A stretch of 35,235 bases of DNA, taken from IMG/VR virus record IMGVR_UViG_2850756110_000003; one strand, given 5' to 3'. The position numbers and the translations under genes are program-made. Positions 25,669 to 29,028 of the stretch are shown one piece after another (positions within the stretch are counted from its first letter, which is position 1; each line of letters opens with the position of its first letter). The notes beneath the pieces were generated by a model that saw nothing but the letters and a program-made list of their open reading frames with translations, was not told the origin of the DNA and ran no database searches. This stretch comes from a virus (lineage: Duplodnaviria; Heunggongvirae; Uroviricota; Caudoviricetes).

Positions 25669-26577
25669 TTAGCACAACGGGCGTACAGCTTCGCGCATCC
25701 CTTTTTCAAGAATCGCATCCAGGTCATTAGCAACCTGCTCGACCAGACCAGGCACTTGCGTCAGGTCCTGCTCCCAGTGGTCTTTTTCTGCCAAAACAAT
25801 CGCTACCAGTTCCGGGGTGCCGATAACACGGTCACGATGCTGGCTCCAGAGTTGCTGATAACGTTCCAGCCAGTGTGCATCGTCCTGTACCGGATATGTT
25901 TCTCCGTTACGCTCACCGCGATAGAAGGCAATCAATGCCGTTAATGCGAAAGTAAGGCGCGCCGGAAGTGTGCCGTTTGCCTTCTGCCCTGCCAGCAGCT
26001 GCGGCAGGATGCGGGTGCGGAACTTGGTCATACCGTTGAGCGCGATAGACAGCAGCTGATGCTTAATGTACGGGTTACGGAAACGCCCGGTGACTGCACT
26101 GGCGAAAGATTCCAGTTCATCACGAGGCAAATCCAGTACCTGAATAATTTCTTCGTCGATGGCTTTTTCAACGAATGCGCAAATTTCAGCATCGTTCATC
26201 GCTTCACCTACGGTATCCAGCCCTGCCTGGAACGCCACCGGCACCAGCGCGGTGTGCGCACCGTTGAGGATTGCCACTTTGCGTTCTTTATACGGTTTAA
26301 TATCGTCAACAATCAGCACATTGAGCGGATATTTGTCCAGGCGCAGCTCAGTCGCTAAGGATTTCGGCCCCTGAATCACAAACAGGTAAAAGTGTTCAGC
26401 GGTGTCGAGAAAACCATCGTGATAACCCAGTTCTTCTTCCAGTTTAGCCACTTCACCACCCCGGTAGCTGTCGGTGTTGCGCGTCAGCTTAGGCAGAGTG
26501 ACGGACGTCACATTACCCACTTCGTTTTCACCATCCACAAACAGCGTAAAAAAGCGAAGATGTTTTGGCACAGCCAT
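25669..26577 (-). pseudogene. uxaB: Chimeric ORF: P2-like tail tube (FII) N-terminus (about 42 codons, roughly 26455-26577) fused in frame to the C-terminal part of altronate oxidoreductase UxaB (roughly 25669-26454)
   Basis: [41 protein letters not shown] | [32 protein letters not shown]...[13 protein letters not shown]...[21 protein letters not shown]...; the second part is the UxaB C-terminus (memory). Start overlaps the sheath gene stop by 1 nt. Confidence 0.8.
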
Positions 26578-27761
26578 CAGGCACCTCCCAGCACCGCAAA
26601 TGCGGGTTCAAAGTATTCATCAGTAAACGTCTGGTAAAGCTCCATGTCTTCCAGTGGCGGAACGGGCGTATATTTGTAGCGAATACGCACACGTCCCTGA
26701 CGTAAATCCGTGGTGCTGTTATCCACCACGTCATACCAGCACTCCGCGCCAATCAGTTTCCCGGCAGTCACCAGTGAATCCAGTTTTGCCCTGATGGCAC
26801 TGATAACATCCTTCACATTCGCAGGCGTCAGTGGACTGTCGATGGTTTCAAACTGCGCTTCCGCAATTGAATCAGCCAGCACCTGTGCGGTTCGGGTATA
26901 CACCTCAAAGATGTAGGCGTTCGTTTCCGGTGTGCGGTTACCCCAGAAGCGGACCCCGTTGCGACGAATAATGGTCGTGATTTCTTTGTTGTTGAGGCTG
27001 TTGGCATCGCTGTCTTCGGCCTGCAACGACCAGAACACATGCCTCGACATCCCCAGCACATTTTTAACCGGAACGTTGGACAGCGATTTGTTCCATCCCT
27101 GTTCATGGTCAATGTACGCACGAAGGCCGCACGCATAGGCAGGCGCGGGGAACGTTTCGTTTTTGCCATTTTTCGGGTTGTAGGCGATGAAGTCCGGCCA
27201 TAAGAGCATCACCTCACGTTCGTTGAATTTCTGGCAGTAGGTAATTGCCTCGGCCATCGTGTTACAGCCATGACATGAGGCATACACAAACGCGCGCAGT
27301 TTATCTGCAATCACGCACAGGGATTTTGTTACCGCCTCCGTGTCCAGCTCCGGCGCGGCCAGAATACGCGGACGGTATCCGATGCTTTCATCCTGCTCTG
27401 CAACAAGCAGCGCATACATCCCCATATAGCTGCCGTCATCCTCAGAACCACCGATAACCAGTTGATCCTGCGTTTTTCCGTCTTCTTCTTTGTGTTCAGC
27501 CACGCGAACGACGATCACCTTTGTGCTCACCTGGTCTGCGATGGCCTTAAGCGCACGATAAAGCGTCCCCGTTGTCCCGCATTTTCCCAGCACGTCATTG
27601 ACGCGGGTCAGCAGTGTGGGCTTGTTCAGCGGGAACAGCTTCGCGTCCGCATCATCCGCCGTTGCCACGATACCTATAACGCTGGAATCAACATCGTTAA
27701 TCGCTGTTACCAGGTCGGTATTCTCCGTAACACGGGCACCATGAAAACGAGTTTCACTCAT
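26577..27761 (-). CDS. P2-like contractile tail sheath protein (gpFI family)
   Basis: 394 aa, [48 protein letters not shown]...; ATG at 27761. Confidence 0.85.
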
Positions 27762-27918
27762 AGCTTCAGCCCCTTGTATCCGTTAAATGATTCAGCAACA
27801 ATCATCACCCACCACGCGCGTAATCTCACCCCTGCGCCGTTCTCCCGCCACGGCGACAACAAAAAGCAGTACCCCCCTCCGCACGCACATGCGACCATGC
27901 CGCACAGGGAGGGAGCAG

Positions 27919-29028
27919 ATGACCGACACCACCATGCAATTGCTCAGTCAGGGCACGGCCCCCGTGAAAATGCCGGATTTTGATATTCTCTCGGAGGGTA
28001 AAACGCTGTCAGGCGTGGCGGAGCGCCTGATGAGCCTGTAACTGACCGACAACCGGGGATTTGAGGCGGACCAGCTCACCATCACGCTGGATGATGCGGA
28101 TGGTCAGTTGCAGCTACCGCCACGGGGCGCGCGTCTGACGGTTCTCATTGGCTGGAAAGGGGAACCGCTGACAGAAAAAGGCACTTACATTGTTGATGAA
28201 ATCGCTCACGAAGGACCGCCGGACAGGCTGACTGTTTCAGCCAGAAGCGCAGATTTTCGGGATGAATTTAACGTTAAACGTGAGGTGTCCTGGCATGATG
28301 TGACCGTTGAGCGTGTGGTATCCGCCATCGCTCATCGGTACGGTCTGAAACCGCAAATCAGCGAAATGCTGATGGATATCGAAATCGACCACGCCGACCA
28401 GACCGAAGAAAGCGACATGTCCTTTCTTACGCGCATGGCGGAAATGCTGGGAGCAATCGCCACGGTAAAAAGCGGCAATCTGTTATTCATCATGCCAGGT
28501 GGTGGCGTGAACGCACAGGGGCAGCCGTTGCCCTCGTTCGCCATTACACGCAGCAGCGGCGATCGCCATCAGTTCCGCATTGCTGACCGCGAGGCGTATA
28601 CGGGGGTACGCGCCTACTGGCTTGATCTTAATTACGGGAAAAAGAAAAAAGTCAGCGTGAAACGCCGCAAACCGCCAAAACCCAAAAAGGAGAAAAGCAG
28701 CAGTCGGGAAGGCGACTATATGGAAGGTGCGGAAGGCAACGTGTTTGTGTTACGCAAGACTTATCAGAACGAGCAGGCAGCAAGACGCGCAGCGGCGGCA
28801 AAGTGGCAGCAGCTACAACGCGGAGCCGCATCATTCTCCATCACGCTGGCGCGTGGTCGTGCAGAACTCTATCCCGAAATGCATGGCACAGTGACAGGCT
28901 TTAAAAGCGAGATTGATTATCAGGACTGGATTATTGCAAAAGCCGAGCACACCATTGATAACAGCGGCTTTACCACGCAGCTTGAACTTGAAGCAAAAAT
29001 CCCGGAATGGATAGCAGAAACAGAATAA
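27919..29028 (+). pseudogene. D: P2 gpD-like tail protein (late control D family) with an in-frame ochre codon at codon 41
   Basis: ATG at 27919 after AGGGAGGGAGCAG; MTDTTMQLLSQGTAPVKMPDFDILSEGKTLSGVAERLMSL-stop(TAA 28039-28041)-LTDNRGFEADQLTITLDDADGQLQLPPRGARLTVLIGWKGE...; the 28108 ORF is in the same frame. Confidence 0.8.

What the first reader, a model, noticed from the sequence alone, without database searches (positions are those of the whole stretch)
26455..29028. P2-like remnant has an abnormal layout: sheath and tube fragment diverge from gpD, and E, T and U are missing
In P2-like phages the sheath, tube, E, T, U, D and ogr genes lie on one strand. Here sheath and tube fragment are on the minus strand, while gpD and ogr are on the plus strand, with only about 157 bp between the sheath and gpD starts and no tube-downstream genes. 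gpD also carries an in-frame TAA at codon 41. This points to an inversion plus deletion, leaving a non-functional tail module.
Basis: partly seen in the sequence, partly recalled or inferred. Interest (0 to 1): 0.4.

Follow-up and report, generated by a model that had tools for sequence, protein, structure and literature searches.

The report
Decayed P88-like prophage, native gene order
The back-to-back sheath and gpD genes are the normal gene order of P88-type (P2-related) phages, not an inversion, and this copy is an ordinary decaying prophage stump in a Shigella chromosome.

Summary
A tail-tube fragment (26454-26577) and an intact sheath gene (26577-27761) lie on the minus strand. A 157-bp spacer follows, then gpD (27919-29028) on the plus strand with TAA at codon 41.

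The "abnormal layout" reading is wrong. Plaque-forming phages P88 and PhiSM, and other complete P88-like phages, match tube-sheath-spacer-D colinearly at 96-97% identity. Two further Peduoviridae genera share the order [U T E' E FII FI]<- ->[D ogr]. So do 1,355 of 5,426 complete E. coli genomes. No inversion happened here.

What is real is decay:
- A direct junction with 2-nt microhomology fuses FII codon 41 in frame to the 3' part of uxaB. This removes the rest of FII, E, E', T, U and everything upstream.
- gpD carries TCA>TAA.
- ogr lies 4.3 kb downstream and is split by IS2.
- An AT-rich cargo gene between D and ogr is split by IS1 and carries a nonsense codon.

Sister Shigella assemblies keep E-U in the native order and share the TAA and the IS2, which gives a decay series. 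This is ordinary prophage erosion.

In passing: the cargo protein belongs to an uncharacterised family with a membrane N-terminus and an HK97-capsid-like C-terminal domain.

The parts
25669..26453 (-). 3' part of uxaB (tagaturonate reductase). CDS nt ~665-1452 are kept and the 5' 664 nt are lost. It forms the C-terminal part of a 302-aa in-frame chimeric ORF (25669-26577).
   Evidence: Pfam Mannitol_dh_C on residues 92-289. Alignment to the E. coli uxaB locus L008.
26454..26577 (-). Tail tube gene FII, first 124 nt only (41 codons). The junction to uxaB is at 26454/26455. It is direct, has a 2-nt microhomology (CA), and has no IS.
   Evidence: Three-way alignment of window, uxaB and intact prophage. 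Pfam Phage_tube positions 1-42 of 165. tblastn with FII.
26577..27761 (-). Tail sheath gene FI, intact, 394 aa.
   Evidence: Pfam and PHROG hits. 97% aa identity to the FI of an intact prophage. 45% identity to P2 FI.
27762..27918 (.). Native 157-bp divergent intergenic region between FI and D. It contains the conserved block TTTTTGTTGT and an imperfect dyad TCT-N12-ACA at 27841-27858, which is a candidate Ogr-type activator site.
   Evidence: It has 2 mismatches to the intact ETEC4088 prophage and 3 to phage P88. The block is conserved in three genera, and the dyad is an exact TGT-N12-ACA in Klebsiella phage 3LV2017. The dyad centre is 88.5 nt from the FI ATG; the P2 pF site is 82.5 nt from its ATG. 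Promoter function is inferred, not shown.
27919..29028 (+). gpD (tail/baseplate hub, 'late control D'), 369 codons, with nonsense TAA at codon 41 (28039-28041; TCA>TAA).
   Evidence: 98% aa identity to an intact D. 49% identity to P2 D. The same TAA is in ten other assemblies.
29025..33267 (+). AT-rich cargo insert (3466 bp without IS1; 33% GC) between the D stop codon and the ogr leader. It holds one 1039-codon gene (29277-33173), inactivated by IS1 and by W672* (TGG>TAG, 32067-32069).
   Evidence: The gene is intact in E. coli ETEC4088 and RIVM_C040348 and in sister Shigella assemblies.
29563..30330 (-). IS1 (768 bp) inside the cargo gene, with the 9-bp target duplication TAAGTGGCC.
   Evidence: Pfam DDE_Tnp_IS1 in identical loci.
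33309..34904 (+). ogr (late-gene activator, 86 codons), split after nt 196 by IS2 (33505-34834; 5-bp target duplication CCCGT).
   Evidence: Pfam Ogr_Delta on the intact homologue.
35095..35235 (+). hok/gef-family toxin gene at the right end of the prophage. ihfA-pheT follow just beyond the window in identical assemblies.
   Evidence: tblastn 100% over 46 aa. Gene tables of loci L009-L014.

Best explanation
The region is the right-hand stump of a P88-like (genus Xuanwuvirus, family Peduoviridae) prophage. In this lineage it sits next to ihfA. In these phages the block FI-FII-E-E'-T-U is natively transcribed away from D-ogr, out of a short shared intergenic region. The sheath/gpD divergence and the 157-bp spacer were therefore inherited intact from the phage.

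The prophage then decayed stepwise in a Shigella lineage:
1. gpD took a TCA>TAA nonsense mutation and ogr took an IS2 insertion. Both are shared with sister Shigella assemblies that still have E, E', T and U.
2. In this lineage, an illegitimate recombination at a 2-nt microhomology joined FII nt 124 to uxaB nt ~665. This removed the rest of FII, E, E', T, U and all upstream phage DNA at this locus, and created an in-frame FII'-'UxaB ORF.
3. The cargo gene between D and ogr was hit by IS1 and by a nonsense mutation.

The result is an inert remnant. It has no activator, no tube, tape measure or baseplate genes, and a truncated D.

The following is inferred, not shown: in the living phage, an Ogr-type dyad in the spacer (27841-27858) activates the leftward FI operon and possibly also the rightward D-ogr unit.
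For: Native layout:
- Colinear matches of 96-97% identity run across 26454-29024 to complete phages P88, P88_4B11, 500465-2, PhiR44_2 and PhiSM.
- Their annotation shows U, T, E', E, FII, FI on one strand and D (then ogr) on the other.
- The same order is seen in Klebsiella 3LV2017 (Reginaelenavirus) and Enterobacter phiT5282H (Novemvirus).
- 1,355 of 5,426 complete E. coli genomes hold the contiguous FI-spacer-D segment. Full prophages with this order sit at ihfA, flk, tRNA-Leu and serS.
- P88 and PhiSM form plaques (PMC5285337, PMC6456863).
- P2 itself is colinear.

Decay:
- The junction and its microhomology are shown.
- The TAA compared with TCA is shown.
- IS1 and IS2 with their target duplications are shown.
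- Absence of every other prophage protein from the window is shown.
- Six assemblies are identical at the junction and the TAA. The proteins carry Shigella dysenteriae and S. boydii names.
- Sister assemblies L022-L025 have the TAA and the IS2 but keep E, E', T, U, the invertase, the tail fibres and an intact cargo gene.

Spacer motif.
Against: - The fate of the DNA between FII nt 125 and uxaB nt 664 cannot be seen from one window. It may be deleted or may have moved elsewhere in the genome. In E. coli K-12 gene order (my own knowledge) uxaB and ihfA lie about 185 kb apart, with essential genes between them. Earlier rearrangements must therefore have preceded the joining event.
- The promoter and activator roles of the spacer rest only on conservation and spacing. 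The dyad here has one mismatch to TGT-N12-ACA, and a sigma-70 consensus scan finds nothing in the spacer.
- Organism names for the assemblies come only from protein cluster labels.
Confidence: 0.95

Rival explanations
1. One reading: a canonical colinear P2-type tail operon was inverted in this chromosome, with a breakpoint between the sheath gene and gpD, and then partly deleted.
For: P2 itself has FI FII E E' T U D ogr on one strand. The host genome is full of IS elements that could mediate inversions (IS1, IS2 and two IS4 copies in the window).
Against: - The spacer and both flanking genes are colinear at 96-99.6% identity with complete phages (two of them plaque-forming) and with intact prophages.
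- There is no IS or repeat at the spacer.
- Sister Shigella assemblies show the full U-T-E'-E-FII-FI block still divergent from D.
- 25% of complete E. coli genomes have the same junction.
Confidence: 0.02
2. The junction and/or the TAA are assembly or sequencing artefacts of this one record.
For: None beyond the general possibility.
Against: - The exact 302-aa chimeric protein is on record in 196 blocks of the collection.
- Six independent NCBI assemblies carry both the 40-nt junction string and the TAA context.
- Four further sister assemblies carry the TAA without the junction.
Confidence: 0.01
3. The remnant is domesticated. The intact sheath gene, or the in-frame FII'-'UxaB fusion, is kept by selection for a host function.
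For: FI is the only phage structural gene left intact (394 aa). The FII'-'uxaB fusion is in frame.
Against: - FI differs from its closest intact relative at only 6 codons, 4 of them non-synonymous. Survival of the ORF therefore needs no selection.
- An in-frame fusion has a 1-in-3 chance expectation.
- The activator ogr is broken by IS2, and all assembly partners (tube, tape measure, baseplate) are absent from the window.
- The UxaB part lacks its N-terminal 222 residues.
Confidence: 0.03

Closest known systems
Escherichia phage P88 and relatives (genus Xuanwuvirus, Peduoviridae): P88_4B11, 500465-2, PhiR44_2, Citrobacter PhiSM
   Same: - 96-97% nucleotide identity across FII'-FI-spacer-D.
- The same 157-bp spacer.
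- The same strand arrangement, with the FI...U block divergent from D.
- The same ogr and hok at the right end.
   Different: - Here only the first 124 nt of FII remain, and everything beyond is gone.
- D has a nonsense codon and ogr is split by IS2.
- A 3.5-kb cargo gene, itself broken, sits between D and ogr. P88 has only ~40 bp there.
Bacteriophage P2 (Peduovirus), F operon FI-FII-E-E'-T-U-D followed by ogr
   Same: - Homologous proteins: FI 45% and D 49% identity.
- The same Pfam families for sheath, tube, D and Ogr.
- A TGT-N12-ACA-like dyad lies about 85 nt upstream of FI, as at P2 pF.
   Different: - In P2 all seven genes and ogr are on one strand, and D is the last gene of the F operon.
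- In the P88 type, D is detached and faces away from FI, so it needs its own promoter.
Intact P88-like prophage with the same cargo next to ihfA in E. coli RIVM_C040348 / ETEC4088, and the partly decayed copy in S. boydii-type assemblies (L022-L025)
   Same: - The same insertion site (ihfA-pheT), the same cargo insert and the same order.
- 99.6% identity to ETEC4088 over 26454-29562.
- The Shigella copies share the D TAA and the IS2 in ogr.
   Different: - The E. coli copies are complete (portal to hok).
- The S. boydii-type copies still hold E, E', T, U, the invertase and the tail fibres, but have a frameshift and an IS1 in FII.
- The window lineage has the FII::uxaB junction and a dead cargo gene.
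Cryptic P2-type remnant of E. coli K-12 (ogrK with a gpD fragment, yegZ); recalled from memory, not tested here
   Same: It is a right-end stump of a P2-family prophage that retains D-related sequence and ogr.
   Different: It is at a different chromosomal site and from a different phage lineage. No comparison was run.
SaPIbov5 Ccm (a major-capsid-protein homologue that redirects helper capsid assembly); relevant only to the cargo gene noticed in passing
   Different: - The cargo protein is 1039 aa, with an N-terminal multi-pass membrane region and a helical middle.
- It has no sequence similarity to any capsid protein.
- Its function is untested.

Membership tests
P2-family (Peduoviridae) contractile tail genes | Sheath protein with the Phage_sheath_1, sheath_1C and Gp18_domIII_N domains, homologous to P2 FI | tested here: met
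   Pfam E-values 9e-18, 8e-10 and 1e-11. PHROG 23 'tail sheath' at 4e-124. 45% identity to P2 FI at E 2e-116.
P2-family (Peduoviridae) contractile tail genes | Complete tail tube gene FII | tested here: not met
   Only nt 1-124 of 513 remain. Pfam Phage_tube covers positions 1-42 of 165.
P2-family (Peduoviridae) contractile tail genes | gpD (Phage_GPD) with an open reading frame | tested here: not met
   The domain is present (Pfam 1.3e-16; 49% identity to P2 D), but the frame is closed by TAA at codon 41.
P2-family (Peduoviridae) contractile tail genes | E, E', T (tape measure) and U are present | tested here: not met
   tblastn with the four proteins of an intact relative gives no hit in the window.
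Xuanwuvirus (P88-like phages) | High nucleotide identity to P88 over the shared genes | tested here: met
   97.3% over 2,571 bp to P88 and 96.2-96.8% to other members.
Xuanwuvirus (P88-like phages) | The FI...U block is transcribed divergently from D-ogr across a ~157-bp spacer | tested here: met
   Annotation of P88 and P88_4B11. The window spacer has 2 mismatches to the intact ETEC4088 prophage and 3 to P88.
Xuanwuvirus (P88-like phages) | Full genome (head, lysis, baseplate, tail, replication, integrase) | tested here: not met
   Only FII', FI, D, cargo, ogr and hok are detectable in the window. Whether other parts survive elsewhere in the genome cannot be tested from one window.
Canonical P2 F-operon layout (FI-FII-E-E'-T-U-D-ogr on one strand) | The sheath gene and gpD lie on the same strand, with U immediately upstream of D | tested here: not met
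   FI is on the minus strand and D on the plus strand.
Secondary chromosomal inversion (IS- or invertase-mediated) | A breakpoint, IS or recombination site at the FI/D boundary that is absent from intact phages | tested here: not met
   The spacer is colinear with intact phages and prophages and holds no IS. The layout is also present in relatives that lack the invertase gene.
Ogr/Delta-activated late promoter (P2 pF type) | A TGT-N12-ACA dyad centred about 55 nt upstream of the transcription start | tested here: inconclusive
   - TCT-N12-ACA lies at 27841-27858, one mismatch from the consensus. The dyad is exact in phage 3LV2017.
- Its distance to the FI ATG is 88.5 nt; in P2 the distance is 82.5 nt.
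- No transcription start data exist.
- P2's own pF site also departs from the consensus.
HK97-fold proteins (cargo gene C-terminal domain; side observation) | Fold-level match to major capsid proteins and encapsulins | tested here: met
   - The AF2 model has pLDDT 83.
- This rests on a predicted structure, not a solved one.
HK97-fold proteins (cargo gene C-terminal domain; side observation) | Sequence-level membership of a capsid or encapsulin family | tested here: not met
   No hit in Pfam, PHROGs, NCBIfam, PADLOC or PDB sequences. hhalign against the prophage's own capsid protein gives probability 0.2%.

The most novel reading that the evidence does not exclude
The tail-module layout itself offers nothing new. 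The most novel reading left open concerns the gene wedged between gpD and ogr (29277-33173, dead here, intact in relatives).

What is known about it:
- It encodes a member of an uncharacterised family of about 1,040-1,150 aa, with 503 clusters at 50% identity.
- The protein has a multi-pass membrane N-terminus, a helical middle and a C-terminal domain predicted to adopt the HK97 capsid fold.
- In the four other contexts examined it was a solitary gene in mobile DNA, with neighbours that included kinds of genes seen in defence islands.

The reading: it could be a one-gene prophage, plasmid or satellite cargo that blocks or senses capsid assembly of competing phages by mimicking a capsid protein at the membrane.
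Probability: 0.25. Interest if true: 0.55.

Novelty: already known. Interest (0 to 1): 0.1.

Why it matters
For the finding as posed, very little. It shows that a layout which looks aberrant against the P2 textbook map is the standard map of a common sister genus, and that this copy is routine Shigella pseudogenisation.

The practical lesson is for annotation. Remnants of P2-family prophages should be compared with the nearest genus (here Xuanwuvirus), not with P2, before a rearrangement is inferred.

The decay series is a tidy example of stepwise prophage erosion. It runs from the intact E. coli prophage, through the S. boydii-type copy, to this window.

The only item with wider potential is the unstudied cargo family with a predicted capsid-like domain.

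Tried and rejected
- **Junction scan.** An exact 40-nt scan for the junction in the species-representative genome collection found nothing. The junction was instead located through the exact chimeric protein.
- **Promoter scan.** A sigma-70 promoter and terminator consensus scan of 27600-28100 found no site inside the spacer. This is uninformative for activator-dependent late promoters.
- **Dyad search.** An exact TGT-N12-ACA is absent from the window's spacer. Only a one-mismatch dyad is present.
- **Literature.** The P88 paper, the PhiSM paper, a Burkholderia P2-like comparison and five papers mentioning Xuanwuvirus were checked. None discusses the inverted FI-U block, and the Burkholderia phages are colinear like P2. 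A 2026 survey of P2 defence hotspots does not mention ogr or gpD.
- **IS-mediated deletion at the FII/uxaB junction.** Rejected, because no IS lies at the junction.
- **Invertase-driven inversion as the origin of the native layout.** Not supported. Relatives without the invertase gene have the same order.
- **Cargo protein, sequence searches.** No hit in Pfam, PADLOC, NCBIfam, PHROGs or PDB sequences.
- **Cargo protein, structure searches.** Foldseek of the full-length model against the PDB gave nothing significant; the best TM-score normalised to the query was 0.2. Profile comparison with the prophage's own capsid protein was negative.
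Full report
**1. Checking the observation**

- The 394-aa sheath gene FI lies at 26577-27761 on the minus strand. It hits Pfam Phage_sheath_1, Gp18_domIII_N and Phage_sheath_1C and PHROG 23.
- Directly downstream, on the same strand, the first 124 nt of the tube gene FII lie at 26454-26577. Pfam Phage_tube covers positions 1-42 of 165.
- On the plus strand, after exactly 157 bp (27762-27918), gpD runs from 27919 to 29028 (Pfam Phage_GPD). It has an in-frame TAA at 28039-28041, which is codon 41.
- Intact relatives have TCA (Ser) there, so the stop comes from a single C>A change at 28040.
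- tblastn with all 27 proteins of an intact related prophage finds only FII residues 1-41, FI, D, a cargo protein, Ogr and Hok in the 35-kb window. E, E', T, U, the baseplate genes and the head genes are absent.

**2. The divergent layout is native, not abnormal**

A BLASTN search of the phage collection with 26400-29100 gave single colinear matches of 96-97% identity across tube fragment, sheath, spacer and gpD. The matching complete genomes are Escherichia phages P88, P88_4B11, 500465-2 and PhiR44_2 and Citrobacter phage PhiSM. Phage Chuche matches at 93%. Thirteen records span the FI/D boundary at 93-98% identity.

The annotated maps of P88 and P88_4B11 show the order: invertase | U, T, E', E, FII, FI on one strand | D, ogr, hok on the other. 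The FI-D gap is the same 157 bp.

The same order occurs in two other genera.
- Klebsiella phage 3LV2017 (genus Reginaelenavirus).
- Enterobacter phage phiT5282H (genus Novemvirus).

Neither of these has an invertase gene, so the arrangement is older than the invertible tail-fibre segment and independent of it. P2 itself is colinear: FI FII E E' T U D ogr all lie on one strand.

P88 was induced and forms plaques, and so do engineered derivatives (PMC5285337). PhiSM is a spontaneously released, lysogenising, plaque-forming phage (PMC6456863).

Of 5,426 complete E. coli genomes, 1,355 carry the contiguous FI-spacer-D segment. Full prophages of this type sit next to ihfA, flk, a tRNA-Leu gene and serS.

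The window's spacer differs at 2 of 157 positions from the closest intact prophage examined (ETEC4088) and at 3 from P88. It contains no IS or repeat. No inversion took place in this chromosome.

**3. What the remnant really comprises**

Alignment of the whole window to the intact prophage of E. coli ETEC4088 (99.6-99.75% identity) shows that the remnant runs from 26454 to the end of the window. Its parts, in order, are:
- FII' (the tube gene fragment).
- FI.
- The spacer.
- D.
- A 3,466-bp insert of 33% GC, against 54% for the phage genes. It holds one 1039-codon gene (29277-33173).
- ogr.
- hok.

The cargo gene is interrupted by IS1 (29563-30330, 9-bp duplication TAAGTGGCC). It also carries W672* (TGG>TAG at 32067-32069).

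ogr (33309...) is split after nt 196 by IS2 (33505-34834, 5-bp duplication CCCGT). It resumes at 34840.

In assemblies identical to the window, ihfA and pheT follow hok directly. This is the same attachment region as in the intact E. coli prophages.

**4. The left junction**

A three-way alignment of the window, E. coli uxaB and the intact prophage places the joint at 26454/26455. The two parental sequences share only the dinucleotide CA, and there is no IS.

FII keeps nt 1-124. uxaB keeps roughly nt 665-1452. The fusion happens to be in frame and gives the 302-aa ORF 25669-26577, which hits Phage_tube at residues 4-44 and Mannitol_dh_C at residues 92-289. This is the signature of illegitimate recombination, not of transposition or site-specific recombination.

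Both flanks have the orientation they have in ordinary E. coli: tam(+), yneE(-), uxaB(-) on the left, and ...hok, ihfA on the right. The joint is therefore of the deletion type.

In E. coli K-12 order (my own knowledge, not tested) uxaB and ihfA are about 185 kb apart, with essential genes between them. Earlier rearrangements must have brought the two regions closer before this event. On its other side the tam-yneE-uxaB' block already abuts an IS4 and a lambdoid prophage instead of lsrG.

**5. The lesions are real and lineage-fixed**

The exact chimeric protein is on record in 196 blocks of the public collection. Six NCBI assemblies read in full carry both the 40-nt junction string and the TAA context. 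One of them (CP026805) is 100% identical to the window over 15669-35235.

Cluster labels name the proteins Shigella dysenteriae and Shigella boydii. No complete E. coli genome has the junction.

**6. A decay series**

A sheath protein that shares a 90%-identity cluster with the window's FI, and is labelled S. boydii, led to four sister assemblies (L022-L025). They hold the same prophage next to ihfA.
- They share the D TAA and the IS2 in ogr at the same site.
- Their cargo gene is intact.
- They still have E, E', T, U, the invertase and the tail-fibre genes in the native order, divergent from D.
- FII there carries a frameshift near codon 66 and an IS1 near nt 460.

The order of events is therefore:
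1. Intact prophage, as in E. coli RIVM_C040348.
2. TAA in D and IS2 in ogr.
3. In the window's lineage, the FII::uxaB joint, IS1 in the cargo gene, and W672*.

This independently excludes a local inversion.

**7. How the native arrangement probably works (inferred)**

An alignment of the FI-D spacers from three genera shows one strongly conserved block. Read in the FI direction it is TTTTTGTTGT, followed by a dyad.
- The dyad is an exact TGT-N12-ACA in 3LV2017.
- It is TGT-N12-AGA in the P88 type and in phiT5282H.
- In the window it lies at 27841-27858.

Its centre is 88.5 nt from the FI start codon. The annotated activator site of the P2 pF promoter is 82.5 nt from the FI start and 57.5 nt from the transcription start. 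The same dyad is centred 69.5 nt upstream of the D start codon.

The likely logic is that an Ogr-type activator bound here switches on the leftward FI-U operon. D has lost its place at the end of that operon, so it must be served by a rightward promoter in the same spacer, possibly using the same symmetric site. None of this is shown experimentally. A sigma-70 consensus scan finds nothing in the spacer, as expected for activator-dependent promoters.

In the window the question is moot, because ogr is disrupted.

**8. Is anything retained by selection?**

FI is intact, but it differs from its closest intact relative at only six codons, four of them non-synonymous. Its survival needs no selection. 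The remnant lacks every partner needed for a tail or a tailocin. I rate domestication as very unlikely.

**9. Side observation: the cargo gene**

Most P88-like prophages have about 40 bp between D and ogr. Only five complete E. coli genomes extend into the insert.

The intact 1039-aa protein has no hit in Pfam, PADLOC, NCBIfam, PHROGs or PDB sequences.

A profile search of 1.84 billion representatives finds 503 clusters at E <= 0.001. Most of the 150 best-scoring ones (about two-thirds) are 1,030-1,150 aa and match end to end; the rest look like fragments.

AlphaFold models gave the following.
- The full-length model has pLDDT 80. It shows an N-terminal bundle of hydrophobic helices, with segments at 45-71, 90-117 and 132-196, followed by a helical middle.
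- The model of the C-terminal 367 aa has pLDDT 83.
- There is no sequence relation to the prophage's own capsid protein.

Homologues were found as solitary genes in other mobile contexts.
- One lies in an island with a P4-alpha-like primase, HNH, FRG and DUF3800 genes.
- One lies beside an integrase fragment and a KAP NTPase.
- One lies on 120-150-kb colicin-M plasmids beside an AAA_15/AAA_21 ATPase and a RES gene.

This neighbourhood pattern fits an anti-phage or exclusion cargo. The function is untested, and in this window the gene is dead.

**10. Verdict**

It is half wrong: there was no inversion and the layout is not abnormal.
- The object is an already known phage architecture in an ordinary state of decay.
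- Interest is low.

Noticed in passing
[not shown]
   Followed up: partly
window 33309-34904: The late activator gene ogr is split by an IS2 copy (33505-34834, 5-bp duplication CCCGT). The same insertion is present in sister Shigella assemblies that still keep most tail genes.
   Followed up: yes
window 25669-26577 (-): An in-frame chimeric ORF of 302 aa joins 41 residues of the phage tube protein to the C-terminal 260 residues of UxaB. Databases annotate it as 'tagaturonate reductase', which is misleading.
   Followed up: yes
window 20459-23733: Two IS4 copies in inverted orientation (20459-21805 on the plus strand, 22387-23733 on the minus strand) bracket a lone lambdoid Packaging_FI gene (21951-22334). 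tam abuts the second IS4 instead of its usual neighbour lsrG. Some sister assemblies have only one of the two IS4 copies.
   Followed up: partly
window ~8400-17750 (-): A lambdoid prophage tail gene block (tape measure 13158-16229, minor tail proteins and others) lies upstream. It is unrelated to the P88-like remnant and is itself cut by IS elements.
   Followed up: no
loci L003, L015, L017 (E. coli ETEC4088, R1, R9): RefSeq annotates the intact 369-codon gpD of many P88-like prophages as a 266-aa 'contractile injection system protein, VgrG/Pvc8 family' plus a small antisense pseudogene. In ETEC4088, the one checked, the reading frame is open from the upstream ATG, so this looks like a start-site annotation artefact.
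   Followed up: partly
loci L022-L025 (sister Shigella assemblies), FII gene: In the sister lineage the tube gene has a frameshift near codon 66 and an IS1 near nt 460. The tube gene was therefore broken independently, or earlier, from the deletion seen in the window.
   Followed up: partly
window 35095-35235 (+): An intact hok/gef-family toxin gene lies at the extreme right end of the remnant, and the window ends at its stop codon. It is the only small phage-borne gene of the remnant that is still intact.
   Followed up: no
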